Shown piece by piece: positions 7,080 through 44,694 of a stretch of DNA of 64,000 bases. The position numbers and the translations under genes were made by a program. Position 1 is the stretch's first letter. Each line of letters starts with the position of its first letter. Origin of the DNA: a virus. Its lineage: Duplodnaviria > Heunggongvirae > Uroviricota > Caudoviricetes. A model generated the notes under the pieces. It searched no databases. It was not told the origin of the DNA and saw nothing but the letters and a program-made list of their open reading frames with translations. The stretch is taken from IMG/VR virus record IMGVR_UViG_3300032245_000624; one strand, 5' to 3'.

Positions 7080-7124
7080 TATTGATCCACTTTTATGTAT
7101 TTAGTGGAGTAGCAATAAACGGTT

Positions 7125-10835: not shown

Positions 10836-10847
10836 TTTTTAACCTTT

Positions 10848-11738: not shown

Positions 11739-11773
11739 GTTCTATTCTCTTGTTTCATCTATTTATTGGGTTT

Positions 11774-12118
11774 TTAAAACCCCCAGATTATACTTGCGGT
11801 GTCAACGTAGCTTTTGGAAATTGCCGCGTTACCATCATAAGCATAGTAACTTGTGTTCAAATAAATGTTTCCGCCTGTCATGGTTATATTGCCTACCACA
11901 GTGGCACTGCCTGTTAAAGTAGCATTGCCAGTGTTTAGATTTGCTGTAGTGATATTTCCAATGATGCTGGCTGTGGTACTAACCAAATTACTACTGATCA
12001 AATTTGCTTCTACATTGATGTTACCAACAATCGCATAATCTGGATCTTGATATGCAAGGCCGCCCAGATCCGCATTAGTTGGGACTTGGTTGGGTAGATT
12101 TCCTATTAGGTTACTCAT
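11774..12118 (-). CDS. Small fibre-associated protein (114 aa)
   Basis: ORF rich in GN-I-T-x-N repeats, between two fibre genes. Confidence 0.45.
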   Translation of the reverse strand: MSNLIGNLPNQVPTNADLGGLAYQDPDYAIVGNINVEANLISSNLVSTTASIIGNITTANLNTGNATLTGSATVVGNITMTGGNIYLNTSYYAYDGNAAISKSYVDTASIIWGF

Positions 12119-12127
12119 TTTTTATCC

Positions 12128-15100
12128 TTACTGCCTTGACAGATTTTCAATTTCACTTGTGCTCACCACTGTTGGCCAATATTGTATTCTGCTAATAGTT
12201 CCGTTTAAGTAGTTAGCACCAGGACCAGAACCAATAACTAATCTTGTTACACCAGATGGAATGTTAGCTATGTTATCTGTTATTGCGGCATTGGCATTCA
12301 AACTAAATCCTAGATAATTTAAACTATAGAATGCAGAAACTCTGCCGCTGTCGCCTGTTGCTAGGTTACCAGGGTTACCAAGATTGGATTGGAATACGCC
12401 GCCGGTAATAACCTGCAGATTGGCCCCGCGTAACAAACTTGGTGCAGTTTTATTCTCAGCTACCAGCTGAACACGATTGTCAGCAGTGCCATCATCAAAG
12501 CTCACAATAACATTACGAGTGTTTTGTAACAATGCACTGTTTAGGCGATAACCAACTTCAGCATCTGCCAGGATGGTTCCTCTGGTGTTGTAAACTCCAT
12601 TAAAGTTACTACCAGTCATTGTTAGTATTTCATTGTCACGTGTTACTGTGCTAACAGTTGTTGGAATATAGCTAGTTGGGTGTGTACCTTGTTCTAACTG
12701 CATTCCATAAACAAACGCACCTTTTGCTCCATCTCCGGTATAGGTATAACTGCCGGCAGCGGCCAACGAAATTGTTACATTACCTGATGTATTGGTTTTG
12801 GTAACAGTACTTGAACAGCGATACCAGCTGTTGGCATAAAGCTCCATTGATGATTGATAGTTGGTTCCCGGGCTAGCAACATTGCCAGTGCCTAGGTCAA
12901 ATACGGATGCTGTGCCTTCTCCATCAAATACCATGGTGATCTGACTACGAGTTCCTGACTTGGCAAAAATACTAACAGTATATGATGAACCACTGGTTAT
13001 TGCAGTTGGTGTGGTCACTGCAAAACCATGCTGATTTAAGTTGCTGTCTTCTTGAATAAAATACACACCATTGTTGCTGCCTTCGGGACCACGAACAGTT
13101 GTGGTTGCTACTGTAGATCCAATTGGGCTCCATGCGGCATTGTCAAACGCACTGGAGTAGGTAAAAATATTAGTCCTGGATTCTTCAATTATCAATCCCA
13201 TTGGATTGCCATCGTAATCGTGTGTGAAGCGTGGCTGGTTAGCGGACATAACCACTAGGTTACCAGAACGATCAACACGAGTACCAATACTGTTTCTTGT
13301 AAAGGTCAATCGTGGATCTAACTTTTGCATGTATGCAAAATTAAAGTTAAGTTTTGTTTGACTGCGTGGTCGTAGTGCTGTGGTACCAAGTGTGGTAAAG
13401 TTTCCTGATGACGGAATTGCATTACCAACCGGAGTGTTATTCAAACTAGCCTGTTGAATTGTTGGAATGGTTAGTGTACCGTCAACAATCAATCCACCTT
13501 TGATGTATGTGTCTCCGCCAACGTTTAGATTCTTGGCAATACCTGCACCACCCCAAACACGCAATGCACCACTTGGTATGGTATTGAATGTGGTTGGTGA
13601 CAACGACTCAACGGTACTAGAAATGTTTGCGGCACTTAGAACGTTAAGGTTGCCCTGAATACCAATACCGCCACGGAGTTGTAATGCTCCAGAATATGCG
13701 TTAACACTGTTCACGCTGTTGTTGATTATCAACCAGCTGTTGGCATTTGTGCCGTAACCAACGTTGATGTTACCAGTTACACCAGCGCCACCAAGCACTT
13801 GCAACGCACCTGTTGTGGCACTGGTACTTTGTGCCCAGGTTGGATTGGTTACTGAACCAACTGCAATATTGCCAATGTTACTATAGGAAGCATTTAAGTT
13901 TGCGGTTGTGGTGGTGTAATCAACTTTTAGATTACCGCCCACGCCTGTTAAAGTTGTAGGATTACCCAGGTTACCATAGATGTTACCCACCACGTTTAGG
14001 GCATTGAACACAGTGGTATTACCGCTTAGGCTACCGATGTTAACAGTTTGTGCCGCTAAACCAATATTGAGTGTGGTTGTGGTTGTGGTAAACAGTGCAA
14101 TGCAGGCCTGTGTGCTTAGGAATTCATCGCTTTCAAATACCACATCACTCTTGATGTATGTACGTCCATTGGTTCCGCCAATGTTGGCATTGCCCATGGT
14201 AACATTACCAAGAACAACCATGGTTCCAGTGATATTTGCATTGCCCCCAATATTGGCAATACCACCAATATTGATGTTACCACCAATACCAGTCCCACCT
14301 ACAACTGTGAATGCTCCTGTTGTGGTGCTTGTACTTGGTGTTGTGCCAGAAATGTCTACGTTGGTAGCATGTAGATTACCATATACGTCTCCTGCAGTCA
14401 ACGAACCAGATCCTAGGTTTACCGCACCAGATCCGGTAATACTAATAGTGCTAGCAGACAATTGACCAACTGCAATATTACCTGCGGTTACGTTGCCTGT
14501 TACAGTTGCGTCCCCTGCTGTAACCAAATTGCCTGTGTTGGTAGTGCCAGTGGTACTTATGTTGCCAGCACTGGCATTTCCAGTAACACTCAGTGTAGTC
14601 AAAGTACCAACACTGATAATATTTGGTTGTGCAGTGGTTAGTAGTGTACCTTGAACATTTGTAAACACACCAGTTGCACCGCTGACGTTGCCTGCTGATA
14701 GGTTACCTGTTGCAGTGATATTGCCTGTGGAGTAAACATTGCCAGTTTTAACAATATTTGCAACCACTAGACTTGCGTCAATTTGAGTGCTGGCTAGATT
14801 GCCAGTGGCAATGTTACCTGTTACGTTCAAGTTGGCTGTTGTAGCAATGTTACCAGAAACATCTAAACTGGTCAGTGTACCAACACTGTTTATGTTTGGT
14901 TGTGCATTGGTTTTGAGTGTACCGGTAACTTCGGTAAATGTTGCACCACCAGATGCCAGTACCCAACTAACTCCAGTGATATTACCGGTCATGGTCAGAC
15001 CAACCAGTGTACCTACTGTGTTGATGTATGGCTGGTTGCCATCTAGTACCTGACCACGTACACCATTGGTAAAGTATCCTCGGCTGGCTTGAACATCTGC

Positions 15101-18100
15101 TGTGGTAGAAATATTAGCAGTGGAAATAATCTTGCCAACTTCCAGTTGTCCTGCAGTCTTCAGATTTCCTGCAGAAATGTTTCCTGTGAAAGATGCACTA
15201 GACGGTAGTGCTAGATCTGAGAATGAAGCGTACCCGCCAGTGATATTGCCAACAGTGAGTGTGTTGGTTACACTAGCATTTCCTGACATCAGTACGTTGC
15301 CGGTCAGTGTTGGGGCATCTGTATTTGCTTTGGTTAGTATTGCACTGTTTGCCGCAGTGATGTTAGCACGTAGATCATTGATTTCAGTGCTTTGTCCGGC
15401 TGCATTGCTTTGCAATCCGCTGATAGCTAAATTAGCCGCAGTTATATTGGCATTAACAGTGTCAATTGCTGTGGACTGAGTGGCTGCATTTGAAGTTAGT
15501 GTGCTGATTACAATATTAGCCGCAGTGATATTGGCACGTAGATTAGCAACTTCAACATTGGCCGCTGTGATGTTTCCACGCAGGTTATCAATTTCAACAT
15601 TGGCCGCTGTGATGTTTCCACGCAACCCACTGATTTCTGAAGACAGTATGCCAGCGTTGCCATACAAGTTTACAATGCTTGCATTGGCTGCTGAGACATT
15701 TGCATTGATTATGGTAATTGCGTTGGCATTGTTTACAATGGCCGCATTTGCCGCTGCCACGTTGGCATTGGTTTCAGCAAAGCTACCACCCTCTAGGCTT
15801 TCCAGCGCAGAGTTGGCTAAAAAGAATAAAGCCTCAATGTTGCCGGTGATTGCTGCCAGGTTGCTGGCCACTGCTACATTAGCTGATTCAAGTTGACGAC
15901 TACCGTCACCAAATATCAAAGCCTGGGCAACTGTAATGTTGCTATCAGTGCTGATACTTCCTTTGACTTTTAAACTGTTTGGAGTTAGCCAACCATTGTC
16001 ATTTTGGTTGTAAATTAAATTAGCGTAAGAACCAGCGTCACCAACAAACACACCTGCACCAGATGCCAGTGTGGCAGTTGAAGCATTGTTTGCAAGAATA
16101 ATGTTTTTCTCAGCTGTTACAATTTGTTCAGTGTTGACTGTGGTAGTGTTACCGCCCACATATAAATTACCAGTTACGTAGAAATTATCGCTGACAATAG
16201 CATTGCCAGTTACCGATAGTCTACCTGTAACGTTTAGATCGTTTAGTGTTCCAACGCTGGTGATGTTAGGTTGTGCCGCAGTAATAACTGTACCTTGCAC
16301 ATTTGTAAAGGTACCTTTGGTTCCACTTACATTGCCAGTGCTCACATTGCCAGTTACATTCAATGTGGCTAGAGTACCAATGGCGGTGATATTTGTTTGG
16401 CTAGCATCAAGCAATGCGCCGCGAATATTTGTAAACGTACCAGTGGATCCACTGACGTTGCCGGTGAATACATTTCCTGTTACTGCCAGTGTTGCCAGGG
16501 TGCCTACACTGGTGATGTTTGGTTGAGCACTGGTTTGTATTAGGCCAGTAATATTACCAATCACTGCATTAGTAGCTGTGAGTGTACCACGAACAGTGCT
16601 GTTACCGCTGGTAAGATTTCCTGTGACATTGGCCAGTGGTGCAACAATACTTCCCAACACATATGGCACAGTAATGTTTCCAGCAAACTGAGCAGTATTG
16701 GCAGTGATATTTTGAATCACTGTCACATAGTTAGCTGTGGTTAGGTTGGCATTGATTTTGGAACTGGTAAATGTAGCAGTTGGATTGCTGGCTACAAAGT
16801 TACCAGTGACTGTGAGATTGCCACCTACATTTAATTGTGTGAGTGTACCAACACTGGTGATGTTTGGTTGAGCCGCTGTGGCCAATGTTCCAATTAGGTC
16901 AGTGAATCGTCCAATTGGAGCAATCACATTTCCAGTAGTACTAACGTTTCCGGTTACTGCCAATCCCAATAAGTTACCAACACTGGTGATATTTGGCTGA
17001 CCAGATGTGCGAATGATACCATATACTTTTAATGCAACCGCAGTGTCGGCAGTTACGTTTCCGCTGACAGTGAGGTTACCCAATGTACCAACACTGGTGA
17101 TGTTTGGTTGTGCGCTGGTTTGTAAAGTTCCAAACACATTGGTAAAGCGTCCGTTTGTGGCCGCAACATTGCTAGCAGATACATTGCCAGACACTGTGAC
17201 ATTGCCAGCAGTCACGCTAGGTGCTGTGACTGTGCCAGTGAAGGTCGGGTTTGCAACAGGAGCTCTTAATGCAATAGCCGCATTGGCCGCTGTGACATTG
17301 GCATTGACCTGAGCAATAGCCGCATTGGCTGCTGTGACGTTGGCATTAACCGCAGCCAAACTACCAATGCCTACTGCATTGATAGCCGCATTTGCCGCCG
17401 CAATGTTTGCACGTAGGCCACTGATTTCAGTTTCTTGTGTGGCAGCATTGGCGTTGAGTGTGTTCAATGATACAGCCTGCGTAGCCGCATTTGACTGTAA
17501 TTGAGATAGGGTGATAGCCTGCGCCGAAGCGTTGGCTATCAGTGTGGCAACATTAGATGAGAGGGTGGATATAACTGCGTTGGCCGCAGTAATGTTGGCA
17601 CGTAAACTGGTAGTAGCAGATTCAAGACTTGAAACATTGCCTTGAAGAATTGTAATCTTGGCATTTGCCGCCGCAACGTTTGCATTAACTGAAGTTAAAC
17701 TAGCAGGGTTGAGGTTGGCAATGATTGCGTTGGCCGCTGTGATATTGGCACGTAAACTGTTTATCTGAGTCTGTTGTGATAACGCATTTGAAAACAGAGT
17801 TGATACATTGGCATTGAGTGCATTGATCGATGATGCCTGCACACCAGCATTGGCAATCAAGTTATTGATTTGAGTACCTTGTGTGCCTGCATTGCTTTGT
17901 AGCGCAGCCACATTGGATCCGATGCCACTTAGATCTGGACCACCACCTATTAAGGCATTTGCGGCCGCAATGTTTGCACGTAGGCCAGCAATTTCAATTG
18001 ACTGGCTAGCGGCATTGGACAATAGACCATTGACCTGTCCGTTAATGGTATTTGCAGAATATAGAACACTGTTGTCTGGGAAACGCAATGCTCCGGACAC

Positions 18101-18553
18101 TGTCAACACGCCGCCAATCACTGCATTCTGAGCGACAGATAATGAATTTGTGGTGGTTGCACCAGCAACAGCCAAGTTGGTTAGAGAAGCATAGCTGGTA
18201 CCATAAATTTGTACATTTTGTATGGTACCACCGGTAATATCAGGATTGTTTGGATCAAATGAAACTGCTAGTATCGCAGAGTCTGTATAGTCTCGATCCG
18301 CGGCAGAGTTTGCTGCCATTGCCTGGCGAATCAAAGTTATTTCACCTTCGCCTACCGCGCCTAGTACGTCTTGAACTGCAATCTCTACATTGCCAACTCG
18401 TCCTGCTACACTATAAACAGCGATATTAGCGGCCAGCACGTTGCCGCTGTAGATCTCAGTGAAATTCTGATTTGTTTTATCGAATGCTGTGCGTAGGTCA
18501 TCACCATTGCCTGCGCCCGCGTCTGTGCCGATGTTAATTATTTGCTGAGACAT
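12128..18553 (-). CDS. Giant tail fibre protein (2141 aa) with tandem about 33 aa repeats and coiled-coil heptad arrays
   Basis: Nine copies of AQPNITSVGTLxxLxVTGN. Long runs of LRANITAANAxI. N-terminus GDDLRTAFDKTNQNFTEI. Confidence 0.75.
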   Translation of the reverse strand: MSQQIINIGTDAGAGNGDDLRTAFDKTNQNFTEIYSGNVLAANIAVYSVAGRVGNVEIAVQDVLGAVGEGEITLIRQAMAANSAADRDYTDSAILAVSFDPNNPDITGGTIQNVQIYGTSYASLTNLAVAGATTTNSLSVAQNAVIGGVLTVSGALRFPDNSVLYSANTINGQVNGLLSNAASQSIEIAGLRANIAAANALIGGGPDLSGIGSNVAALQSNAGTQGTQINNLIANAGVQASSINALNANVSTLFSNALSQQTQINSLRANITAANAIIANLNPASLTSVNANVAAANAKITILQGNVSSLESATTSLRANITAANAVISTLSSNVATLIANASAQAITLSQLQSNAATQAVSLNTLNANAATQETEISGLRANIAAANAAINAVGIGSLAAVNANVTAANAAIAQVNANVTAANAAIALRAPVANPTFTGTVTAPSVTAGNVTVSGNVSASNVAATNGRFTNVFGTLQTSAQPNITSVGTLGNLTVSGNVTADTAVALKVYGIIRTSGQPNITSVGNLLGLAVTGNVSTTGNVIAPIGRFTDLIGTLATAAQPNITSVGTLTQLNVGGNLTVTGNFVASNPTATFTSSKINANLTTANYVTVIQNITANTAQFAGNITVPYVLGSIVAPLANVTGNLTSGNSTVRGTLTATNAVIGNITGLIQTSAQPNITSVGTLATLAVTGNVFTGNVSGSTGTFTNIRGALLDASQTNITAIGTLATLNVTGNVSTGNVSGTKGTFTNVQGTVITAAQPNITSVGTLNDLNVTGRLSVTGNAIVSDNFYVTGNLYVGGNTTTVNTEQIVTAEKNIILANNASTATLASGAGVFVGDAGSYANLIYNQNDNGWLTPNSLKVKGSISTDSNITVAQALIFGDGSRQLESANVAVASNLAAITGNIEALFFLANSALESLEGGSFAETNANVAAANAAIVNNANAITIINANVSAANASIVNLYGNAGILSSEISGLRGNITAANVEIDNLRGNITAANVEVANLRANITAANIVISTLTSNAATQSTAIDTVNANITAANLAISGLQSNAAGQSTEINDLRANITAANSAILTKANTDAPTLTGNVLMSGNASVTNTLTVGNITGGYASFSDLALPSSASFTGNISAGNLKTAGQLEVGKIISTANISTTADVQASRGYFTNGVRGQVLDGNQPYINTVGTLVGLTMTGNITGVSWVLASGGATFTEVTGTLKTNAQPNINSVGTLTSLDVSGNIATTANLNVTGNIATGNLASTQIDASLVVANIVKTGNVYSTGNITATGNLSAGNVSGATGVFTNVQGTLLTTAQPNIISVGTLTTLSVTGNASAGNISTTGTTNTGNLVTAGDATVTGNVTAGNIAVGQLSASTISITGSGAVNLGSGSLTAGDVYGNLHATNVDISGTTPSTSTTTGAFTVVGGTGIGGNINIGGIANIGGNANITGTMVVLGNVTMGNANIGGTNGRTYIKSDVVFESDEFLSTQACIALFTTTTTTLNIGLAAQTVNIGSLSGNTTVFNALNVVGNIYGNLGNPTTLTGVGGNLKVDYTTTTANLNASYSNIGNIAVGSVTNPTWAQSTSATTGALQVLGGAGVTGNINVGYGTNANSWLIINNSVNSVNAYSGALQLRGGIGIQGNLNVLSAANISSTVESLSPTTFNTIPSGALRVWGGAGIAKNLNVGGDTYIKGGLIVDGTLTIPTIQQASLNNTPVGNAIPSSGNFTTLGTTALRPRSQTKLNFNFAYMQKLDPRLTFTRNSIGTRVDRSGNLVVMSANQPRFTHDYDGNPMGLIIEESRTNIFTYSSAFDNAAWSPIGSTVATTTVRGPEGSNNGVYFIQEDSNLNQHGFAVTTPTAITSGSSYTVSIFAKSGTRSQITMVFDGEGTASVFDLGTGNVASPGTNYQSSMELYANSWYRCSSTVTKTNTSGNVTISLAAAGSYTYTGDGAKGAFVYGMQLEQGTHPTSYIPTTVSTVTRDNEILTMTGSNFNGVYNTRGTILADAEVGYRLNSALLQNTRNVIVSFDDGTADNRVQLVAENKTAPSLLRGANLQVITGGVFQSNLGNPGNLATGDSGRVSAFYSLNYLGFSLNANAAITDNIANIPSGVTRLVIGSGPGANYLNGTISRIQYWPTVVSTSEIENLSRQ
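15560..15640 (-). repeat. Near-exact tandem DNA repeats inside the giant fibre gene (aacattggccgctgtgatgtttccacgca occurs twice). Many more degenerate repeats lie at 13.4-17.9 kb
   Basis: Direct repeat seen in the sequence. It corresponds to the coiled-coil ANITAANA protein repeats. Confidence 0.6.
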
Positions 18554-18631: not shown

Positions 18632-19189
18632 TCAACGTCCGGAGTAGATTCGACGATTTACGACTTCCCAATCAATGATTTTCCAGTGATTTTTGAGATA
18701 AGATTGCTTGTTCCATTTGTAGTCTAGTGCCCAGGCATGCTCCCACCAATCAATCAACAATGCAATGTCTTTTTTGATTGCGTGATTCTTGATTGTTTTG
18801 ATATCCCCTGATCGAGACAGATAAGCCCAACCTGAGCCCTGGATCTTCATGGCTTCTTCTTCAAATGCTTGCTGAAAATTTATATACGAACCAAACTTGC
18901 GATTGATCAAGTCTAAACTGGCACCATGCGGTGTATTTCCGCCAGCTGGTTTTTGTAATTGTGTGAAGTATATGTTATGCAAAAAAGCACCTGCTTCGTT
19001 GAAGTCGGGGTCGCCTTCGCCTGAATTAAAACGCTCTACATAGGTTTTATAAAGATGTCCGTAGTGATAGTCTACAGCATCTTTACTCAAACTAGGGGAC
19101 AGATCATCACGAGCATAGGGCAGTTTGGCCTGCTCAAGATTGTTTTTTGCTTTGCTTTCTACTAGATCAACTAGCTGTCGGAATTCCAT
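18632..19189 (-). CDS. Fe/Mn superoxide dismutase
   Basis: Motifs AVDYHYGHLYKTYV and DWWEHAWALDYK, and a length of about 185 aa, match Fe/Mn SODs. Confidence 0.85.
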   Translation of the reverse strand: MEFRQLVDLVESKAKNNLEQAKLPYARDDLSPSLSKDAVDYHYGHLYKTYVERFNSGEGDPDFNEAGAFLHNIYFTQLQKPAGGNTPHGASLDLINRKFGSYINFQQAFEEEAMKIQGSGWAYLSRSGDIKTIKNHAIKKDIALLIDWWEHAWALDYKWNKQSYLKNHWKIIDWEVVNRRIYSGR

Positions 19190-19193
19190 ACAG

Positions 19194-19415
19194 CTATTTA
19201 TTACGATATGTAATTCTGCCGCGGCTTAGATCATATGGGCTCATTTCCAACTCAACTGAGTCGCCCAACAAAACTTTGATGTTGTTCTGGCGCAGTTTGC
19301 CACCTAGATATGCTATTATTTTGTGCTCTGTTTCGTCGAGCACCACACGAAATGTGGCATTGGGTAGAACTTCTTCCACAACACCTTTCATTGTAATAAA
19401 ACCTTCTTTAGCCAC
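19194..19415 (-). CDS. infA: Translation initiation factor IF-1 homologue
   Basis: 73 aa. [28 protein letters not shown]...[21 protein letters not shown] aligns along its whole length with bacterial IF-1 (S1/OB fold). Confidence 0.85.
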
Positions 19416-20998: not shown

Positions 20999-21027
20999 AT
21001 TATATTACGGAAAAAACTTATAGTCAA
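20999..21027 (-). promoter_or_regulatory. Sigma70-type promoter TTGACT-17-TATAAT (minus sense)
   Basis: Plus agtcaa at 21022-21027 and attata at 20999-21004, with a 17 nt spacer. Confidence 0.55.
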
Positions 21028-21037
21028 CCGGCTCTAA

Positions 21038-21880
21038 TTAGGTCCAAAGCCCGTGACGCACTTTGATCAACCGAATCATCATGGCTTCGTCTTCTTTTTC
21101 AAAACCACGTTCCATGCTGTTGATCATTTTGTGAGCCTTGTCCATACGTTTACGCATGGAAGGATTTCTGTTGCCCAGCATGCCTATGCTTAGTTTGCCA
21201 CCAGCGGCCGCACGTTCTTCTTCGCAGAGCGCACTCCAACCCGAAACTTCGTAAGGGTCTGGACGATTTGGATAGATCTGAGTCCACCAGTTGTACAGGT
21301 CCAGAATTTCTTGTGCTTTTACTGCCTGTGGTGTTGGATCGTCGGCACGTTCTGGGTCAGTGCTCCAGCCTTCGTCACCTACTTTGAGACGACGTTGCCA
21401 TTCCAAGCTGTCCAGGCCTGCTTCTGCACAACGCCAGGTACGCCAACGGAACCATCCTTTAGCCCAGAACGGTGCGTTATACTTTGCAGTTTCTTCTTTG
21501 TCGCTCCAGGCAATGTGATGCCAGGCCAGTTCAATTTCCACAAAGTCTACCAGTTCATTGAACAAACATGGGAGAAAGCGATTACCAACGTCCATCCAAG
21601 TGCCAGGCTTGATATCACGAGGATGAGCAGTAAGCGCATGGGTGCGAGTGACCCAGCGATTATTAACATAGTACTTGATGGCATAGAGTTTGTCCACAGG
21701 CCAGTGAATAAAGTTTTGCAGTGCATCCAGTGCTTCTTCTGCAATCCAGTAGCGGATAGGATGTGCTCGTTGTGCTTCGTCGTTCCAGTCATTCCAACCT
21801 TGTGACGTGGCCGCAGACGGCTTGGCCATGCCTCGAACCCACTCAGCAAATTTTGTGTTACTCCAATAGAATGATCTCAT
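21038..21880 (-). CDS. Hypothetical Trp-rich protein (280 aa)
   Basis: Long ORF in the chain. Confidence 0.55.
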   Translation of the reverse strand: MRSFYWSNTKFAEWVRGMAKPSAATSQGWNDWNDEAQRAHPIRYWIAEEALDALQNFIHWPVDKLYAIKYYVNNRWVTRTHALTAHPRDIKPGTWMDVGNRFLPCLFNELVDFVEIELAWHHIAWSDKEETAKYNAPFWAKGWFRWRTWRCAEAGLDSLEWQRRLKVGDEGWSTDPERADDPTPQAVKAQEILDLYNWWTQIYPNRPDPYEVSGWSALCEEERAAAGGKLSIGMLGNRNPSMRKRMDKAHKMINSMERGFEKEDEAMMIRLIKVRHGLWT

Positions 21881-21881
21881 G

Positions 21882-22154
21882 TTAGTTATACTTCATCAAA
21901 AAATATGTTCGGGCGACTTCTGTGTAGAAATCAATGTGGATCACTGTTTCACCCCAATGGCCGCCATCCATTTTTGGAACCCATGGGCGATGCTCACGCG
22001 GCAGAAATCCCAGTTCGTCACGCATCTTGCTTCGTAGCATGACCATACTGGGTCCATGCTCTGCTCGAATCTGTTCGCGGATCTTGTTCCATTCTGCGTG
22101 AGTTAATTCCCAGTGTTTGATTGGATTTTCCATACTAGCACCATTTGAGTACAA
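21882..22154 (-). CDS. Small protein, distant member of the F-x-LKW paralogue family (ends ARTYFLMKYN)
   Basis: C-terminal similarity to the downstream paralogue array. Confidence 0.5.
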   Translation of the reverse strand: MYSNGASMENPIKHWELTHAEWNKIREQIRAEHGPSMVMLRSKMRDELGFLPREHRPWVPKMDGGHWGETVIHIDFYTEVARTYFLMKYN

Positions 22155-22350
22155 AGGCGGTTAGCTCTGCTTCTGTTTGGAATTTCCAAAGTTGAAAAGC
22201 CATCCGGACTCCAATTTGATTGTTCATTGTCCACTGCATTATAGCATCCGCTTCATCATCTGTCAATGATGATCCATCCAAATGATTTACTTCTATCCAA
22301 ATTGCACTTGGATATTTTTGGACATGAATACGTTTGTAGGCTATAGCCAT
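22135..22350 (-). CDS. Paralogue family small protein 1 (ends AFVLKWC)
   Basis: Shared motifs W-x-x-N-x-G near the N-terminus and F-x-LKW at the C-terminus. 10 nt overlap with the next gene. Confidence 0.55.
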   Translation of the reverse strand: MAIAYKRIHVQKYPSAIWIEVNHLDGSSLTDDEADAIMQWTMNNQIGVRMAFQLWKFQTEAELTAFVLKWC

Positions 22351-22658
22351 TTTAGGGTAAACATCATGGCATCTTCGCTGTTTTTGAACAAGAACAGCAT
22401 GTAGTCTTCTTTGGGATGGGTCATGTACTTGTCGCCGGGCAGTCCAAAGTTCTCCACAGCCCAGGCACAGGCTTCATTCCAAAAGTATGAAGTGTCTTTG
22501 CCTTTTTCCCATTTTAGTTCTACCAAATGCCAGTCTGGATTAGTTTCCATGATAATTTGCCATCCTATATCTTCTAGTATTTCGCGGTCAATTTGTTCAG
22601 CCAGTGCCCGGCCAGCCTGGTCCAGAAAGTCGTCTTGGATACTCTTGTTCACATCCAT
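22341..22658 (-). CDS. Paralogue family small protein 2 (ends MMFTLKWL)
   Basis: Family motifs AWAVENFG and FTLKWL. Confidence 0.55.
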   Translation of the reverse strand: MDVNKSIQDDFLDQAGRALAEQIDREILEDIGWQIIMETNPDWHLVELKWEKGKDTSYFWNEACAWAVENFGLPGDKYMTHPKEDYMLFLFKNSEDAMMFTLKWL

Positions 22659-22906
22659 TTTAGTGTAAACAACACTGCATCTGCATCTTCTGCAAAACAG
22701 AATTTATACAGTTCATACGCATCTTGACCGGCCCAAACGCAGGTCCATGCTCCATCACGATTGACAAATATGTCCCAACGTTTACCAATTTGACTGTTAC
22801 ACCATTGCATGGCATCCAAGTGCTTGGTCTTGTGAATAAACACGCTATGCTCTAGTTTCCGTAGACCGCGGCGTAGTTTGCGTTGTTGTGCTGAGTTCAT
22901 GACCAC
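22649..22906 (-). CDS. Paralogue family small protein 3 (ends AVLFTLKWM)
   Basis: Family motifs MQWCNSQIG and FTLKWM. Confidence 0.55.
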   Translation of the reverse strand: MVMNSAQQRKLRRGLRKLEHSVFIHKTKHLDAMQWCNSQIGKRWDIFVNRDGAWTCVWAGQDAYELYKFCFAEDADAVLFTLKWM

Positions 22907-23148
22907 CTCAATAAAAATACCAACAGATCTTTTTCTTCACGAAACCAAAACTTTGCATTGTTAACATACCAACGCTGACTAGGAGTAAACACGCCATCGC
23001 CACTGGTAGGACCAAATGTTTCAATCATCCAACCAATCATGTCATCCCACTTTTTATGATGTCCGTAGACCCAGTCATCTTCTAGTACAGGATGCACAGT
23101 CCAGTACCGGGCGCCAAATACTCGTCCTTCGGATCGTTCTATAACCAT
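22897..23148 (-). CDS. Paralogue family small protein 4 (ends LLVFLLRWS)
   Basis: C-terminal family motif. Confidence 0.55.
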   Translation of the reverse strand: MVIERSEGRVFGARYWTVHPVLEDDWVYGHHKKWDDMIGWMIETFGPTSGDGVFTPSQRWYVNNAKFWFREEKDLLVFLLRWS

Positions 23149-23321
23149 TTTAACTTAAACACCACAGCATCCTGCTCGTCTTCAAAGTAGTAGGCAACAT
23201 AAGCGCCGTCAATTTTAAATGTGCCAAATATTGTGCAAGACAAATAGCTTGCACAGTTATCTGCCGCCCAGTCTCTGGCTTCCCAGCTGTGCTCGTGTGG
23301 TAATGTTACAGTGTATCTCAT
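23139..23321 (-). CDS. Paralogue family small protein 5 (ends AVVFKLKWL). Likely starts at the internal ATG 23321, which is coupled as ATGA to the upstream stop
   Basis: tcat at 23318-23321 gives a stop/start overlap. The longer ORF 23139..23378 would overlap its neighbour by 61 nt. Confidence 0.5.
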   Translation of the reverse strand: MRYTVTLPHEHSWEARDWAADNCASYLSCTIFGTFKIDGAYVAYYFEDEQDAVVFKLKWL

Positions 23322-23536
23322 GACCAACGTAGTGCAAATAATGTTGCTTCTGCTTCGTCCCCAAAATATAAACCACAAGCTTCTTGTTCGCCTAGTGCAG
23401 TGGGATTACTTTTGATGTACACTTGATATGCACCGTACTCCGCTTCGAGCCAATCCCAAAAGTCATCATCGCAGTGATGTTGTTTATGATACTCTTGTAG
23501 CTTGTCCCAGAAAGGTTCAATGGGTATTGTTTTCAT
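23318..23536 (-). CDS. Paralogue family small protein 6 (ends ATLFALRWS)
   Basis: C-terminal family motif. Confidence 0.55.
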   Translation of the reverse strand: MKTIPIEPFWDKLQEYHKQHHCDDDFWDWLEAEYGAYQVYIKSNPTALGEQEACGLYFGDEAEATLFALRWS

Positions 23537-23748
23537 AGTTCTTTCATGGTCAGCATGGTGGCCCAGGCTTCTGAATCCCCATTGAACATGAATTGCAGTT
23601 CACGTTTGTTTTGATCCACACGCCAGGTGTAGTCTCGGCCCATAACAATACCCTGTTCCTTGAGCCAGCGTGAGATTGTCACACCGCGGTGTGTTTCTTG
23701 TTCTGATGTTCCTTCACGGAATGGTAGAGTAACAGTTTTCATGCCCAT
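23533..23748 (-). CDS. Paralogue family small protein 7 (divergent, ends ATMLTMKEL)
   Basis: Position and size within the array. Weaker motif. Confidence 0.45.
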   Translation of the reverse strand: MGMKTVTLPFREGTSEQETHRGVTISRWLKEQGIVMGRDYTWRVDQNKRELQFMFNGDSEAWATMLTMKEL

Positions 23749-23951
23749 TTTAATTTAAACAACATAGCATGTTTGTCTTCCCGGAATTTAAACCAGGTGT
23801 TCCCAAACATACTATACACGCACCACACACCTTCCACATCGTCGATGGTGTGTTCCCACCCGCCGGGTCCTATATTCTCCCGACACCATTTAATCATTTC
23901 ATCTTGTTGATGATACTGACGTTTGTCAAATCCTACTTCTGTTCTTGCCAT
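23739..23951 (-). CDS. Paralogue family small protein 8 (ends AMLFKLKWA)
   Basis: Motifs IKWCRENIGPGGW and FKLKWA. Confidence 0.55.
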   Translation of the reverse strand: MARTEVGFDKRQYHQQDEMIKWCRENIGPGGWEHTIDDVEGVWCVYSMFGNTWFKFREDKHAMLFKLKWA

Positions 23952-24402
23952 TTTCTTCTCTATCGTGCATGGTTATTCCATCCAGGTGATCCAACTCATG
24001 TTGGTAACACACAGCGGCCATACCTTCTAGTTCTTCCTCGCGCCACTCGCCTTCGATTGTTTGATAACGTGCCCAGATTTTTCTTGGACGGTGTGTTTGC
24101 ACATATTCATCCGGAAAGCTCAAACAACCTTCTTGACACTCAAACAGTTGATCTGTGGTGGCATCGGAGAACTCTGGATTAAAACAAGTTCTAGCAATAC
24201 CATCTACATTTATCACAAACACTCGGCGACTGATTCCCACTTGTGGCGCAGCCAGCCCGATTGCACCTGCACGATCCATGAATTCGTGCATCATAGTGCT
24301 CAGGCGCATGAGTGGGCGAGCATCTTCAAACGTAACCAGCTTGGCTACATTTTTCAGCACTCGATGAGTGAGCTTGAGTTTATTAGGAATGATCATAGCC
24401 AT
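23926..24402 (-). CDS. def: Peptide deformylase
   Basis: Three PDF motifs are present: GIGLAAPQVG, EGCLSFP and HELDHL. Confidence 0.85.
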   Translation of the reverse strand: MAMIIPNKLKLTHRVLKNVAKLVTFEDARPLMRLSTMMHEFMDRAGAIGLAAPQVGISRRVFVINVDGIARTCFNPEFSDATTDQLFECQEGCLSFPDEYVQTHRPRKIWARYQTIEGEWREEELEGMAAVCYQHELDHLDGITMHDREENGKNRSRI

Positions 24403-24581
24403 TTTAATGAAAATAACACAGCGTCTTTGCTTCGGGTGAATATGAATTCATAGCGTGGGGTTTTACTGAACAGTGCCTCGGGCGGAACATTCAAGGTCCA
24501 GTACTTGTAGCCAATGTTTTTCACAGCCCAGGCGCCGGCCTCGGTTGCACGTTCTGGATCAGTTAGGGTTATGGTTTGCAT
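24393..24581 (-). CDS. Paralogue family small protein 9 (ends AVLFSLKWL)
   Basis: Motifs AWAVKNIG and FSLKWL. Confidence 0.55.
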   Translation of the reverse strand: MQTITLTDPERATEAGAWAVKNIGYKYWTLNVPPEALFSKTPRYEFIFTRSKDAVLFSLKWL

Positions 24582-24612
24582 AACTTATTATAGCATAATA
24601 TAACAATTTATG

Positions 24613-24813
24613 TCAATCGTTCCATTTTAGAACAAACCAAGCCGCATGGGATTCGCGGTGGAATATAAAGCAGGTGCTGCCGATAGTATTGTCCAATTCG
24701 CCCCAGTGCCCAGCCCAGATACTCCAGCACCATTCCAATCTTTCGGCAATTTGGTCACGTGTTATTCTTCCACAATTCACGTGCCATTTGTCATTTTTTC
24801 TTATCAGTTTCAT
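24613..24813 (-). CDS. Paralogue family small protein 10 (ends AAWFVLKWND)
   Basis: C-terminal family motif. Confidence 0.5.
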   Translation of the reverse strand: MKLIRKNDKWHVNCGRITRDQIAERLEWCWSIWAGHWGELDNTIGSTCFIFHRESHAAWFVLKWND

Positions 24814-25273
24814 CTATGCACAGGGCTTCTAGTACTTTGTAGTGTTCGTATGCTTGTTTAAGTGCTTCGTATTTTTCCAAACGGGCAGGATCGGGTACCA
24901 GGATAGCTAGACGGTCTTGGATCTTGGCCAACAGGTCAGTTATGTTTACTCCACCCACTTTTAGGGTACCTTCTACCTCAGCATCGCCTGAAACCTTCAA
25001 TGCCGAGTTAGATGTAGCGCCAACGGTTACCATTGGGCTGGTTGCAGTGGTCCAAGTAGGACCACTGCCATTGCTGGTATAGTAGGATCCTGATCCACCT
25101 GTGCCAGTCAAAGTGCTATACGTGTAACAGCCAGTGGCACTGGTGGTTAATGTGATGTTCCCTGTTGGAGCTACGTTTGCGGTTGGGTAAAGATTGCCAA
25201 CTGAAATATTATATGCCATATTGTTGTCCAAAGATTCTGGCAGGTAAGGAGCAAAGCTGAGTAAGCTGGACAA
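24791..25273 (-). CDS. Hypothetical protein (160 aa), Gly/Thr-rich with a C-terminal coiled coil
   Basis: ORF. The start may be the internal MAYNIS. Confidence 0.45.
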   Translation of the reverse strand: MSSLLSFAPYLPESLDNNMAYNISVGNLYPTANVAPTGNITLTTSATGCYTYSTLTGTGGSGSYYTSNGSGPTWTTATSPMVTVGATSNSALKVSGDAEVEGTLKVGGVNITDLLAKIQDRLAILVPDPARLEKYEALKQAYEHYKVLEALCIDETDKKK

Positions 25274-25490
25274 TTGACATCAGACAATTATCAACATACA
25301 AATTACAGAGGACCTAATATTGCCTGGGAACAATAGACAAAGTTTTTGCCCAGGAGCACTAGATCACGAGGCGTTAGCCATTAAGTTCGGTGTCTTTTAT
25401 GAAGACTCCTGTGTGCTTATCATGCTTCCTCTTCTTACCATCACGCCAAGGACAGGCAAGCCTGCCCCACTAAGGGACCAGCCCTTAGAT

Positions 25491-26069
25491 TTATAGCAGT
25501 GCCTCGCGGACGAGAACTGCTTCAACATCTGGAGTTAACTGGATCTCGGTACGAATATTGAGTTCCAGGATTTCGTCGTTGAGTCTTTGCTTCTGCTTCT
25601 TGAGATCACGGATCACACTACGGATGCCGTCAATCTGTTCACTGGACAAAACACCAGTGCTGATTTCATCGCTGTAACCATATAGGTGACCGCGAGCATC
25701 AGCTGGCCGATTGCGAATTTTATCTAACTTACCAGATACAATCGTGATCTCGGTGATTAGATTATCTGCAACAGCCATTGCTTCCAGTTGAGCAATGCGC
25801 TTGTCAACATAGGCAGCGTGACTGAGTTTGTCAGCAATGCCAGACTGTGCATTGCCCTGGCCCACAAGACTACGCAGGCTATAGATGCTCATCAACAGAT
25901 CATTTCTGCGACTATCGTTGGCCAACAAACGACTGTTGGCAGTGGCAATGGCTTCAGCAGGATCTTGAAACTCTGACAGTGCCAGAGTGCATTTAACATC
26001 AATTGATGCCATTAAATCTTGTAGAGATTTTTGCAGGGCAGAAGCTTTGCGAAGTGTAATTTGTGCCAT
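25491..26069 (-). CDS. Hypothetical protein (192 aa), predicted alpha-helical/coiled coil
   Basis: ORF with a consensus promoter directly upstream (26103-26131). Confidence 0.55.
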   Translation of the reverse strand: MAQITLRKASALQKSLQDLMASIDVKCTLALSEFQDPAEAIATANSRLLANDSRRNDLLMSIYSLRSLVGQGNAQSGIADKLSHAAYVDKRIAQLEAMAVADNLITEITIVSGKLDKIRNRPADARGHLYGYSDEISTGVLSSEQIDGIRSVIRDLKKQKQRLNDEILELNIRTEIQLTPDVEAVLVREALL

Positions 26070-26102: not shown

Positions 26103-26139
26103 TACACAAGGCTGTTTTGCAACCTTGTGTTTTACCGTT
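26103..26139 (-). terminator. Intrinsic terminator hairpin ACACAAGG...CCTTGTGT plus a U-tract. It embraces the -35 of the next promoter (TTGCAA-17-TATAAT)
   Basis: 8 bp inverted repeat at 26113-26139 followed (minus sense) by AUUUUAUAAU. -35 plus ttgcaa at 26126-26131. -10 plus attata at 26103-26108. Confidence 0.55.
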
Positions 26140-26963
26140 TAGATATCGAATCCAATACGAGGATCAAAATCTTTGGCCTGTTGCTCGTATCCGTAGTAGC
26201 CACGTGGGTTGGCAATAACATTGCATTCACCAATCATGTAGTTGCTAGGGTCGTGCATGTGACCATGTGTCCAGAACTTGATCTGTGGACGATCTAAGAT
26301 GAACTCGCTGAGGTCTGACGCATAGCCGCCATTCATGTGATGATCATGTTTGTAATGCTCATGCACACTCATGAAGCTGGGTGCGTGATGTGTACACACC
26401 ACAACATCCTTGCCTGGATGTTTGTCAATTTCATTGCTGAAAAACTCCTTGGTACGCATATGAGTTTCCATAGTGTCTTGTGGAATCAGCTTGCGATACA
26501 CACCATTCTTCATGTGTGTGATAGCACGATAGTCGTTCATGCCATGCTTCAAGGTCTGAATAGTCAGCGGATCGCCTTTGTTGCAGTCAGTCCACAGCGT
26601 GGCACCCAGGAACAGTACATTGTCAATAACCAGGCTTTGATCTTCAAGAACCTCTACATTATCAGGCATTTCCGCACAGATTTCGTGCCAGGTCTTGCTG
26701 TATTTTGTATGATAGTGCTCGTGGTTGCCCATCACATAGATAACCTGACGATACTTGGTACATTCTTCAATGAAGAAACGGATAGCACGATCCAGGCGCT
26801 TGCCTTCGTTGCCGTTGTCACCTAACAGGTTGTTTGGATCATACTTGTACTTGCGTAGGGTACGACTCTCACACGCATCGCCGGAGATCACTAGAACATC
26901 GCCACCTGGTAGATAAAGGTCGCGGAATTCAAGGTGAAGATCAGAGATTACGTTTACACGCAT
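26139..26963 (-). CDS. Calcineurin-like metallophosphoesterase
   Basis: N-terminal MRVNVISDLHLE plus GNHE/GHxH-type motifs. Confidence 0.75.
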   Translation of the reverse strand: MRVNVISDLHLEFRDLYLPGGDVLVISGDACESRTLRKYKYDPNNLLGDNGNEGKRLDRAIRFFIEECTKYRQVIYVMGNHEHYHTKYSKTWHEICAEMPDNVEVLEDQSLVIDNVLFLGATLWTDCNKGDPLTIQTLKHGMNDYRAITHMKNGVYRKLIPQDTMETHMRTKEFFSNEIDKHPGKDVVVCTHHAPSFMSVHEHYKHDHHMNGGYASDLSEFILDRPQIKFWTHGHMHDPSNYMIGECNVIANPRGYYGYEQQAKDFDPRIGFDI

Positions 26964-35466: not shown

Positions 35467-35671
35467 GTTCGTCCTCTAGTTCATCTTCATAGCATTTCAC
35501 AGTACCATTGCAACAATGGAAACAGGTGTAGGGCCGGCCACTTTCGTCCAGGTCCATAAACCAGCCACCACCGCATCGAGGGCAGTCTATTTCTGTGCGT
35601 TCAGCTGTCACAATTTTTCTCCAGGTGCAAATCCACGGAAGCCTTTGAATCGGGGGAAACGCAGGCTCCAT
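35447..35671 (-). CDS. Small zinc-ribbon protein (74 aa)
   Basis: CPRCGGGW...CFHCCNG. Confidence 0.45.
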   Translation of the reverse strand: MEPAFPPIQRLPWICTWRKIVTAERTEIDCPRCGGGWFMDLDESGRPYTCFHCCNGTVKCYEDELEDEHEQNNK

Positions 35672-44265: not shown

Positions 44266-44294
44266 TGCAAAAAGAAACCCGCCGAAGCGGGTTC
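44266..44294 (-). terminator. Rho-independent terminator ending the tmRNA precursor (CCCGCUUCGGCGGG plus UUUCUUUUUG)
   Basis: GC hairpin plus U-tract. Confidence 0.65.

Positions 44295-44628: not shown

Positions 44629-44694
<66 letters not shown>

What the first reader, a model, noticed from the sequence alone, without database searches (positions are those of the whole stretch)
21882..24813. Translationally coupled tandem array of at least 10 paralogous small genes (C-terminal F-x-LKW motif) with peptide deformylase embedded
Eleven consecutive 60-105 aa ORFs share an N-proximal W-[CA]-x-x-N-[IF]-G...W segment and a C-terminal [DE]-x-x-[AL]-x-x-F-x-L-[KR]-W-[LMSAC] end. Examples are AVLFTLKWM, AVVFKLKWL, AMLFKLKWA, AVLFSLKWL and ATLFALRWS. 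They are chained by ATGA or 10 nt overlaps. The def gene sits inside the array at 23926-24402. Such diversified tandem paralogue families in phages are often counter-defence or host-takeover factors, with each copy tuned to a different host target. The family is not one I recognise.
Basis: seen in the sequence. Interest (0 to 1): 0.7.

Follow-up and report, generated by a model that had tools for sequence, protein, structure and literature searches.

The report
Early-gene array of novel small phage proteins
A T4-like phage from a metagenome carries a chain of about ten diverged copies of a small, previously undescribed protein domain, switched on early in infection; the same arrays occur in many uncultured large phages, and their function is unknown but is most likely binding of host factors.

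Summary
On the minus strand of 21882-24813 lie 11 consecutive small genes with a peptide deformylase gene among them. Eight are robust paralogues, two are probable (p4, p10) and one is doubtful (p11).

They share a ~55-residue domain, W…G…F-x-F…D-A-x-x-F-x-L-[KR]-W. AlphaFold2 predicts it at pLDDT 91.5 as a β-α-β-β-α sandwich. Only core residues are conserved, with no catalytic signature.

The family has no match in Pfam, PHROGs, NCBIfam, PADLOC, PDB sequences, GenBank phages or 185,579 prokaryotic genomes. It does have at least 1,252 cluster representatives in metagenomes. In IMG/VR contigs it forms same-strand tandem arrays of 1-19 copies, often just downstream of a metallophosphoesterase gene.

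In this window the paralogues are old: 33% identity to each other, 60% to orthologues in other phages, dN/dS 0.1-0.45. Consensus σ70 promoters drive the array, so it is an early unit. The last codons (AGG/AAA-TGG-nnA-TGA) also supply the Shine-Dalgarno sequence or start codon of the next gene. The deformylase gene is absent from two syntenic relatives.

Function is untested. Host-directed binding (takeover or anti-defence) is the best guess, not a demonstrated result.

The parts
24613..24813 (-). p1, 66 aa, family member (…AAWFVLKWND). Its stop codon lies inside the -35 hexamer of the promoter that follows.
   Evidence: Leave-one-out HMM E = 5.6e-4; broad HMM 1e-6; orthologues in L002, L005, L007, L009 and L010.
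24587..24616 (-). Perfect σ70-type promoter TTGACA-N18-TGnTATAAT. The -10 hexamer ends 5 nt before the p2 ATG.
   Evidence: 3 perfect sites in the window against 0.02 expected. Conserved at the same place in 4 of 5 relatives and degenerate in L010.
24393..24581 (-). p2, 62 aa, the minimal family member (…AVLFSLKWL).
   Evidence: Leave-one-out E = 3.4e-8. AF2 pLDDT 91.5, β-α-β-β-α.
23926..24402 (-). Peptide deformylase, 158 aa, embedded in the array. It overlaps p2 by 10 nt and p3 by 26 nt.
   Evidence: PF01327 E = 1.7e-37. GLAAPQ, EGCLS and HELDH motifs in the translation. Absent from syntenic L009 and L010.
23739..23951 (-). p3, 70 aa, family member (…AMLFKLKWA).
   Evidence: Leave-one-out E = 5.4e-11.
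23533..23748 (-). p4, 71 aa, probable divergent member (…WATMLTMKEL). Its orthologues are the best conserved in the array.
   Evidence: Leave-one-out E = 1.2; broad HMM 2e-3; hhalign E = 4e-4 in register; 91% identity to L005 with dN/dS 0.10.
23318..23536 (-). p5, 72 aa, family member (…ATLFALRWS), acidic (pI 4.4).
   Evidence: Leave-one-out E = 2.7e-5; many 72-aa orthologues.
23139..23321 (-). p6, 60 aa from the ATG at 23321 (ATGA overlap with p5) (…AVVFKLKWL).
   Evidence: Leave-one-out E = 3e-7. Start taken from the junction analysis and from the 60-aa gene call in L001.
22897..23148 (-). p7, 83 aa, family member (…LLVFLLRWS). Its end, AGG TGG TCA TGA, forms a Shine-Dalgarno sequence plus an ATGA start for p8.
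   Evidence: Leave-one-out E = 1.9e-7; junction.
22649..22900 (-). p8, 83 aa from the ATG at 22900 (…AVLFTLKWM), basic (pI 9.2).
   Evidence: Leave-one-out E = 2.9e-10. The database protein P0003 starts at this ATG.
22341..22658 (-). p9, 105 aa: a long N-terminal helix (residues 3-39, …AEQIDREILEDI…) plus the core domain carrying WNEACAWAVENFGLPG. This is the most widespread subtype.
   Evidence: Leave-one-out E = 3.1e-8; AF2 pLDDT 82; about 90 orthologue clusters.
22135..22350 (-). p10, 71 aa, probable member (…LTAFVLKWC).
   Evidence: Leave-one-out E = 1.5e-3; above E = 0.01 with the broad HMM.
22238..22266 (-). Second perfect σ70-type promoter, inside p10 and about 100 nt upstream of p11.
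21882..22133 (-). p11, 83 aa from the ATG at 22133 (…ARTYFLMKYN). Conserved last gene of the cluster; family membership doubtful.
   Evidence: Found by neither HMM; hhalign P = 0.004, probability 8%; orthologues in all five syntenic loci.
21038..21880 (-). Conserved 280-aa Trp-rich protein that closes the cluster in all syntenic relatives. It is a flank, not a family member.
   Evidence: No Pfam or PHROG hit; 48-62% identical orthologues directly after the array.
26139..26963 (-). Metallophosphoesterase, the upstream syntenic anchor of the array (flank).
   Evidence: phrog_1649 E = 1.9e-51. A Metallophos gene precedes the arrays in L002-L010, L045, L062 and L065.

Best explanation
The locus is an old, vertically inherited early-gene cassette of an uncultured T4-like myovirus.

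Shown:
- It encodes about ten diverged paralogues of one previously undescribed ~55-residue α/β domain (β1-α1-Gly turn-β2-β3-α2).
- The conserved residues are the hydrophobic core (Trp in α1; F-x-F in β3; F, L and W in α2), a Gly turn and a helix-capping D-A.
- Consensus σ70 promoters on the coding strand sit before p2 and before p11.
- The genes are chained by stop/start overlaps. The codons of the conserved C-terminal [KR]-W-x also form the next gene's Shine-Dalgarno sequence (AGGTGG) and/or its start codon (AAATGG, nnATGA).
- Each paralogue has orthologues in related phages and is under purifying selection.
- def is an optional insertion.

Inferred:
- Host RNA polymerase transcribes the cassette at the start of infection.
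- Ribosomes pass from one cistron to the next by coupled termination and reinitiation.
- The proteins are non-enzymatic binding modules. The shared core is a scaffold; the variable β2-β3 loop, the N-terminal extensions and the surface charge (pI 4.4-9.2) give each copy a different macromolecular partner.
- The partners are most likely host proteins that are neutralised or redirected early in infection, meaning host takeover or inhibition of defence and abortive-infection factors.
For: - Real family: leave-one-out HMM; 129 and 1,654 database homologues; 1,252 representatives in a full HMMER scan.
- Early expression: perfect promoters at 24616-24587 and 22266-22238. There are 3 in 64 kb against 0.02 expected, and 2 of the 3 lie in the array. 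The p2 promoter is conserved in 4 of 5 relatives and degenerate in L010. Every perfect consensus promoter in the 36 fetched loci that have one lies on the + strand, to which the family-bearing loci are oriented. No T4 late motif TATAAATA in the array.
- Coupling: overlaps. Across 190 copies in 32 loci, 85% end W-x-stop and 54% have ATGA overlaps. The Arg codon before the terminal Trp is AGG in 68 of 119 cases, against 84 of 997 Arg codons elsewhere in the same ORFs (odds ratio 14.5).
- Age and selection: nearest relative of every window copy is an orthologue (mean 60% identity) against 33% for the best paralogue. Conserved order p1-p2-…-p4-p5-…-p9-p11-280aa. dN/dS 0.07-0.45.
- Virus-only: tandem arrays in 56 IMG/VR loci; none in GTDB genomes with the p9-type pattern.
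- Binder rather than nucleic-acid protein: the family is acidic (median pI about 5, 69-84% below 6) and Trp-rich at 5.3%.
Against: - No partner, phenotype or expression data exist. The functional step is inference from context and from the absence of enzyme features.
- Strong purifying selection and deep orthology are not the pattern expected of fast arms-race effectors. The copies could equally act on conserved phage or host housekeeping processes.
- Promoter calls are consensus matches, not mapped transcription start sites.
- Copies in the codon test are phylogenetically related, so its P-value is overstated.
- No member was found in any cultured phage, so nothing can be transferred from a model system.
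Confidence: 0.45

Rival explanations
1. The domain is an RNA- or ribosome-associated module (KH-, RRM- or ACT-like α/β sandwich), and the array tunes translation or mRNA fate during infection. This would fit the translation-related genes nearby: def inside the array, then IF1, a phage tmRNA, and S21, ClpX and Hsp70 in other carriers.
For: - A G-L-P-G (GxxG-like) loop follows α1 in most family members.
- Neighbours include def, IF1 at 19194-19415 and a tmRNA at 44273-44743.
- L065 carries S21, ClpX, Hsp70, Hsp20 and ClpS around its copy.
Against: - The topology lacks the second helix that follows GxxG in KH domains.
- The family is mostly acidic (median pI about 5), and the most conserved subtype, p9, has net charge -11.
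- def is absent from two syntenic arrays.
- Large phages scatter such auxiliary genes throughout their early regions.
Confidence: 0.15
2. The proteins act on the phage's own morphogenesis, as assembly chaperones or capsid-associated or internal proteins. The p9 subtype would dock through an N-terminal helix that resembles a helix of the T4-type major capsid protein.
For: - Orthologues of p9 hit Pfam Gp23 (PF07068) at 26-29 bits, above the 24.4 cut-off, with residues 3-46 against model positions 166-209.
- hhalign places the p9-type helix on the homologous helix of T4 gp23 (GMDADAELSGILATEIMLEINREVVDW, P = 0.02) and of gp24 (FLEDLLATEMADEINKDILQSLI, P = 0.0017).
Against: - The match covers less than 10% of the capsid model.
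- The window's own p9 gives no Gp23 hit at E ≤ 0.1.
- The p9 profile finds no capsid protein in PDB sequences at E ≤ 1.
- The array has early-type promoters and no late-promoter motif.
- The other subtypes lack this helix.
- The N-termini are not conserved, so there is no shared capsid-targeting sequence.
Confidence: 0.1
3. The C-terminal motif is conserved mainly for nucleotide-level reasons, as the ribosome-binding site and start codon of the next cistron. On this view the ORFs are not a true protein family.
For: - The final codons double as a Shine-Dalgarno sequence or start codon.
- AGG is 14-fold enriched as the Arg codon before the terminal Trp.
Against: - Homology extends over the whole ~55-residue domain.
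- AF2 folds it confidently, with the terminal F-x-L-x-W in helix α2.
- The Trp is kept in 65 of 146 representatives where it is internal or followed by a C-terminal extension.
- dN/dS is well below 1.
- The nucleotide constraint is therefore an added layer, not the cause.
Confidence: 0.03

Closest known systems
Clusters of small early 'host-takeover' or accessory genes in large virulent phages (T4 early small ORFs and hyperplastic regions; the SPO1 host-takeover module). Comparison from my own knowledge; the T4 'hyperplastic region' concept is also described in PMC2147016.
   Same: Dense same-strand runs of 60-100-aa genes, strong σ70-type early promoters, overlapping stops and starts, unknown or non-enzymatic products, and gene content that varies between related phages.
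   Different: Those clusters are mostly unrelated genes. Here one domain family fills the cluster (up to 19 copies elsewhere), keeps a conserved gene order with orthologues across phages, and has no homologue in T4-type cultured phages examined.
T-even internal-protein (IP) polymorphic loci (from my own knowledge)
   Same: A polymorphic tandem locus of small proteins in T4-like phages. At least one IP (IPI*) is an anti-restriction factor.
   Different: IPs share only an N-terminal capsid-targeting sequence and are packaged in the head. Here the N-termini vary, the conserved part is the folded core and the C-terminus, and the promoters are early type.
Tandem arrays of immunity genes next to polymorphic toxin loci (SUKH, Imm families; Zhang et al. 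2012, PMC3482391, seen only as a search hit)
   Same: Tandem arrays of diverged small α+β paralogues that are thought to each bind a different protein.
   Different: No sequence match to any Pfam Imm or SUKH family, no toxin gene nearby, and the arrays are in viruses rather than cells.
Multigene families of large eukaryotic DNA viruses (poxvirus and ASFV MGFs) (from my own knowledge)
   Same: Virus-specific paralogue arrays whose copy number varies between lineages. L048, L045 and L047 show recent in-array duplicates.
   Different: Bacterial virus, much smaller proteins, polycistronic coupling. In this window the copies are ancient rather than recently amplified.
Pfam PF07068 (Gp23, T4 major capsid protein)
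   Same: A helix of about 30 residues in p9-type members (…A-x-E-I-x-x-E-I-D-R-E-I…) resembles one helix of gp23 and gp24.
   Different: Less than 10% of the model is covered, no HK97 fold is present, and the window's p9 does not reach E = 0.1.

Membership tests
The family defined here (W…G…F-x-F…D-A-x-x-F-x-L-[KR]-W domain) | Significant match to a family HMM built without the sequence itself | tested here: met
   p1, p2, p3, p5-p10 score E = 5e-11 to 1.5e-3. p4 is met only with the broader HMM and hhalign. p11 is not met.
The family defined here | β-α-β-β-α fold with the conserved aromatic residues in α1, β3 and α2 | tested here: met
   AF2 for p2 (pLDDT 91.5) and p9 (pLDDT 82) gives the same core topology. 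The other copies were not modelled.
Peptide deformylase (the embedded gene) | Full-length PF01327 match and the three catalytic motifs G-[IL]-A-A-P-Q, E-G-C-L-S and H-E-x-x-H | tested here: met
   E = 1.7e-37, model positions 6-152 of 156. GLAAPQ, EGCLS and HELDH are in the translation.
Pfam Gp23 / T4-type major capsid protein | Match along the HK97-like capsid domain (376 model positions) | tested here: not met
   Only positions ~166-209 are matched, in orthologues, at 26-29 bits. The window's p9 has no hit at E ≤ 0.1. No PDB capsid hit.
T-even internal proteins | Shared N-terminal capsid-targeting sequence | tested here: not met
   The N-terminal regions of the 11 ORFs do not align; only Met1 is invariant before the core.
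T-even internal proteins | Packaged in the head and injected with the DNA | not testable with these tools
   Needs virion proteomics. The early-type promoters argue against it.
Known anti-defence proteins / anti-CRISPR loci | Homology to a characterised inhibitor, or an adjacent HTH (aca-type) regulator | tested here: not met
   No Pfam, PHROG or PDB match for any copy. No HTH family in the flanking genes scanned. No dedicated anti-defence library was available.
Known anti-defence proteins / anti-CRISPR loci | Demonstrated inhibition of a defence system | not testable with these tools
   Requires experiments.
Polymorphic-toxin immunity arrays (SUKH/Imm) | Match to an Imm or SUKH family and linkage to a toxin gene | tested here: not met
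   No such Pfam hit in the 10 window copies or in 100 diverse members. The neighbours are def, a metallophosphoesterase and unknowns.
KH domain | β-α-α-β-β-α topology with GxxG between two helices, and nucleic-acid binding | tested here: inconclusive
Anti-phage defence proteins (PADLOC) | Match to a defence-system model | tested here: not met
   0 families for the 10 copies.

The most novel reading that the evidence does not exclude
The domain is a phage-exclusive, evolvable binding scaffold. The arrays would be the bacterial-virus counterpart of the multigene families of large eukaryotic viruses: a battery of early inhibitors, each disabling a different host defence or housekeeping protein, kept expandable by a gene end that carries the ribosome-binding site of the next copy. 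In the boldest version, the p9 subtype displays a mimic of a major-capsid-protein helix as an early decoy for host immunity that senses capsid protein.
Probability: 0.12. Interest if true: 0.8.

Novelty: new variant of a known kind. Interest (0 to 1): 0.5.

Why it matters
- The family is large (at least 1,252 clusters at 50% identity) and was found here only in viruses, in uncultured phages, yet it is invisible to Pfam, PHROGs and NCBIfam.
- It occupies a conserved early locus in many large T4-like phages, in up to 19 copies.
- Families of this kind are where new host-takeover and anti-defence proteins have usually been found. A defined HMM, a confident fold and a list of orthologous subtypes make it directly testable.
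- The gene-end design is a clear example of dual coding: the conserved C-terminal codons double as the Shine-Dalgarno sequence or start codon of the next cistron. It may explain how such arrays expand without losing expression.

Tried and rejected
Searches that found nothing:
- Megablast of 21000-26000 and tblastn of the 280-aa protein, p9, P0074 and a family consensus against GenBank phages.
- Pfam, PHROGs, NCBIfam and PADLOC on the window copies and on 25-100 diverse members. Only scattered, non-recurrent weak hits.
- PDB sequence searches with two family profiles.
- GTDB genomes with the p9-type patterns.
- Literature searches for a description of the family, the phage lineage or the samples.

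Structure searches:
- BFVD returned only uncharacterised 'uncultured Caudovirales' proteins.
- afdb50 was unavailable.

Cultured phages checked for members, none found:
- the def neighbourhoods of Stenotrophomonas phage DLP_6 and Synechococcus phage S-CAM7;
- the metallophosphoesterase neighbourhoods of Synechococcus phages B23 and S-CRM01.

Technical failures:
The narrower A6 worked.

Dismissed as spurious:
- the 5,048-aa hit P0150 and the 401-aa hit P0248. Both are repeat proteins that match only the α1-Gly segment many times.
- No fusion of the domain to a domain of known function was seen among the longer hits.

Ideas rejected:
- internal-protein locus, because there is no shared N-terminus;
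- immunity-gene array, because there is no Imm or SUKH match and no toxin gene;
- KH domain, because the topology and charge do not fit;
- a purely nucleotide-level cause of the C-terminal motif.


Full report
**Context.** All long ORFs of the window lie on the minus strand. They include RIIA (48138-50315), an ATP-dependent DNA ligase (35608-36936), a clamp-loader-like ATPase and a metallophosphoesterase (26139-26963). The best RIIA matches are T4-like phages at about 40% identity. Neither the DNA of 21000-26000 nor the flanking 280-aa protein matches any GenBank phage. The window is therefore part of an uncultured, distant T4-like myovirus. The same proteins occur on metagenomic contigs of 100-360 kb.

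**The observation.** ORF listing and junction analysis give this order on the minus strand:
- a 142-aa gene
- p1 (24613-24813)
- a 31-nt spacer
- p2 (24393-24581)
- def (23926-24402)
- p3 (23739-23951)
- p4 (23533-23748)
- p5 (23318-23536)
- p6 (23139-23321)
- p7 (22897-23148)
- p8 (22649-22900)
- p9 (22341-22658)
- p10 (22135-22350)
- p11 (21882-22133)
- a conserved 280-aa gene (21038-21880)

The multiple alignment shows W…G…F-x-F…D-A-x-x-F-x-L-[KR]-W. In leave-one-out HMM searches against all 1,151 stop-to-stop ORFs of the window, nine left-out members came back at E = 5e-11 to 1.5e-3. The best unrelated ORF never scored better than E = 0.06. p4 and p11 failed that test.
- p4 is recovered by a broader HMM (E = 2e-3) and by hhalign in register (E = 4e-4).
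- p11 is only weakly similar (P = 0.004, probability 8%).
- That gives eight robust members, two probable (p4, p10) and one doubtful (p11).

def is a genuine peptide deformylase (PF01327, E = 1.7e-37), with the GLAAPQ, EGCLS and HELDH motifs visible.

**The protein.** AlphaFold2 models the minimal member p2 at mean pLDDT 91.5:
- β1 (2-6)
- α1 (9-22)
- Gly turn
- β2 (28-31)
- short helix
- β3 (44-48)
- α2 (51-61)

p9 has the same core behind a 37-residue N-terminal helix (pLDDT 82).
- The conserved residues are the Trp of α1, the Gly after it, F-x-F in β3, the D-A cap and F/L/W on one face of α2. From the residue pattern I infer that this is a hydrophobic core plus turns. No polar constellation suggests catalysis.
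- The copies differ widely in charge (pI 4.4-9.2) and are Trp-rich.
- Family-wide, the median pI is about 5 and Trp makes up 5.3% of residues.

**The family elsewhere.**
- There is no match in Pfam, PHROGs, NCBIfam, PADLOC or PDB sequences, either for the window copies or for 25-100 diverse members.
- The word-indexed search found 129 and then 1,654 homologues, all unnamed or 'hypothetical' apart from one stray regulator label.
- The exhaustive HMMER scan of 1.84 billion representatives found 1,252 at E ≤ 1e-3.
- The family consensus is V-x-I-x-W…W-x-E-[IA]-C-x-W-A-x-E-x-F-G-L-P-G-x-R-[YF]…M-x-F-x-F…E-x-D-A-x-x-F-x-L-[KR]-W.
- BFVD returns about 19 'uncultured Caudovirales phage' proteins as the best structural matches (best E = 1.2e-3, TM 0.81-0.90).
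- No relative of the p9-type pattern exists in 185,579 species-representative prokaryotic genomes.
- No member was found in GenBank phages by tblastn, nor in the def or metallophosphoesterase neighbourhoods of four cultured phages.

**Arrays are the rule.** In 56 IMG/VR loci recovered with the p9-type alignment, an HMM scan of all six frames found family members only on the strand of the query match. There were 1-19 copies within 16 kb:
- L045: 19
- L062: 14
- L047: 12
- L048: 10

L048 shows 13 consecutive genes, each ending …L-R-W-x. The last one carries a p9-like N-terminal helix. A metallophosphoesterase precedes the array in the syntenic relatives and in L065. It does so also in the distant L045 and L062, and a DNA ligase lies nearby in L045 and L048.

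**History of the window's array.**
- Five syntenic relatives (L002, L005, L007, L009, L010) keep the order Metallophos-192aa-142aa-p1-p2-…-p4-p5-…-p9-p11-280aa.
- p3, p6, p7, p8 and p10 come and go or move.
- def is absent from L009 and L010.
- Every window copy has its nearest relative in another phage (mean 60% identity). The best paralogue in the same array is at 33%.
- Orthologue pairs give dN/dS of 0.07-0.45, with dS near saturation.
- The array here is therefore an ancient, maintained set of subfunctionalised genes. L048, L045 and L047 also contain recent in-array duplicates, so the family evolves by birth and death.

**Expression signals.**
- Two perfect TTGACA-N17/18-TATAAT promoters with an extended -10 TG lie on the coding strand, at 24616-24587 (between p1 and p2) and at 22266-22238 (inside p10).
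- The window holds three perfect sites against 0.02 expected.
- The first promoter is conserved in four of five relatives and degenerate in L010. In all six sequences the -10 element ends 5-7 nt before the p2 ATG.
- Among all 70 fetched loci, 36 carry perfect consensus promoters, and every one is on the + strand, to which the family-bearing loci are oriented.
- The T4 late motif TATAAATA is absent from the array.
- I infer host-σ70-dependent early transcription.

**Translational chaining.** In the window most junctions read AAA-TGG-nnn-TRR, so the K-W codons contain the next ATG. Several also read nnA-TGA. Across 190 copies in 32 non-redundant loci:
- 85% end W-x-stop
- 54% have an ATGA overlap
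- 37% have AGGTGG, a Shine-Dalgarno sequence made by the R-W codons
- 18% have AAATGG

The Arg before the terminal Trp uses AGG in 68 of 119 cases. Elsewhere in the same ORFs AGG accounts for 84 of 997 Arg codons (odds ratio 14.5; the copies are related, so the P-value is inflated). The gene end is thus dual-coding. This cannot be the whole reason for the motif, for three reasons:
- The Trp is also kept where it is internal.
- The Trp lies in helix α2.
- Homology spans the whole domain.

**Interpretation.** What is shown is a real, old, virus-restricted paralogue family of a small non-enzymatic α/β domain, at a conserved locus, with early-type promoters and coupled translation. What is inferred is that the copies are binding modules with different partners, most likely host proteins targeted early in infection (confidence about 0.45).

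Rivals:
- RNA- or translation-related function. The KH/RRM-like fold, the GxxG-like loop and the neighbours def, IF1 and tmRNA favour it. The acidity of the family and the generic fold scores count against it.
- A role in morphogenesis. This is suggested by a short resemblance of the p9-type N-terminal helix to one helix of T4 gp23 and gp24. Pfam Gp23 scores 26-29 bits in orthologues, and hhalign gives P = 0.02 and 0.0017 on the homologous helices. The match is short, it is absent for the window's own p9, and it conflicts with the early promoters.

**Comparison and novelty.** The locus works like the early small-gene clusters of large virulent phages. It resembles in form the immunity-gene arrays of bacteria and the multigene families of large eukaryotic viruses. 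It belongs to none of them by sequence (see the membership tests). The protein family appears undescribed, while the kind of locus is familiar. The extra feature is the gene-end ribosome-binding site embedded in conserved codons.

Noticed in passing
window 44273-44743 (-): The phage encodes a two-piece (permuted) tmRNA. ARAGORN calls a permuted tmRNA with tag peptide AKANTQTGVKVTVAKGFRFGGSKVAATEAAFA. Rfam matches tmRNA_permuted (112 bits) and beta_tmRNA (86.5 bits against a gathering score of 84). The betaproteobacterial type hints at a betaproteobacterial host.
   Followed up: partly
window 24576-24616 (-), and the same place in L002, L005, L007, L009 and L010: The promoter before p2 ends its -10 hexamer only 5-7 nt before the ATG, with no room for a Shine-Dalgarno sequence. 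The transcript may therefore start at or next to the AUG, giving a leaderless mRNA. The stop codon of p1 lies inside the -35 hexamer (GAT TGA CA).
   Followed up: partly
window 19194-19415 (-) and 18632-19189 (-): The phage encodes a translation initiation factor IF1 homologue (PF01176, E = 3.8e-21) and an Fe/Mn superoxide dismutase (PF02777/PF00081) just downstream of the cluster. In relatives an IscA-like Fe-S protein follows.
   Followed up: partly
window 21038-21880 (-): A 280-aa Trp-rich protein with no Pfam or PHROG match closes the array in every syntenic relative (48-62% identity). A 281-aa ORF also follows the array in distant L062 (12768-13613). It may be functionally linked to the array.
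   Followed up: partly
orthologues of p9 (P0058, P0067, P0072, P0087, P0119); window 22545-22658 (-): The N-terminal helix of p9-type proteins passes the Pfam gathering score for Gp23, the T4 major capsid protein, over about 30-64 residues. It aligns to the homologous helix of T4 gp23 and gp24. This is either a short mimic or a chance amphipathic similarity.
   Followed up: partly
P0037, P0074, P0045, P0061, P0080 (p9 orthologues from other contigs): Several gene calls of p9 orthologues begin with …(K/R)G(R/K)GL(I/V)Q(I/L)TGR…, a motif I recall from lysozyme- or chitinase-type glycoside hydrolases. In those phages the ORF may run on from, or overlap, an upstream lysozyme-like gene.
   Followed up: no
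window 12128-18553 (-), 7125-10835 (-), 1596-7079 (-): Three giant ORFs of 2,141, 1,236 and 1,827 aa. The first is full of …LRANITAANA… and …QPNITSVGTL… repeats and looks like a fibre protein. The third has a He_PIG Ig-like domain.
   Followed up: no
window 59842-59870 (-): The third perfect TTGACA-N17-TATAAT promoter of the window, far from the array, just upstream of the gene at 59225-59815.
   Followed up: no
L065 (ENA contig of 253 kb), 1-16249: Another large phage carries the abundant 82-aa subtype of the family. Its copy sits between a metallophosphoesterase and Hsp70, near ClpX, ribosomal protein S21, Hsp20, ClpS, heme oxygenase and a bilin reductase. That is an unusually rich proteostasis and pigment gene set.
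   Followed up: no
L048 5674-8646 (+): A 13-gene array in which nearly every gene ends …F-x-L-R-W-x and the next begins (G/A)TG-Gnn-ATG-A. It ends with a p9-like member carrying the …EIQQEIDW… helix, the same position this subtype has in the window's array.
   Followed up: partly
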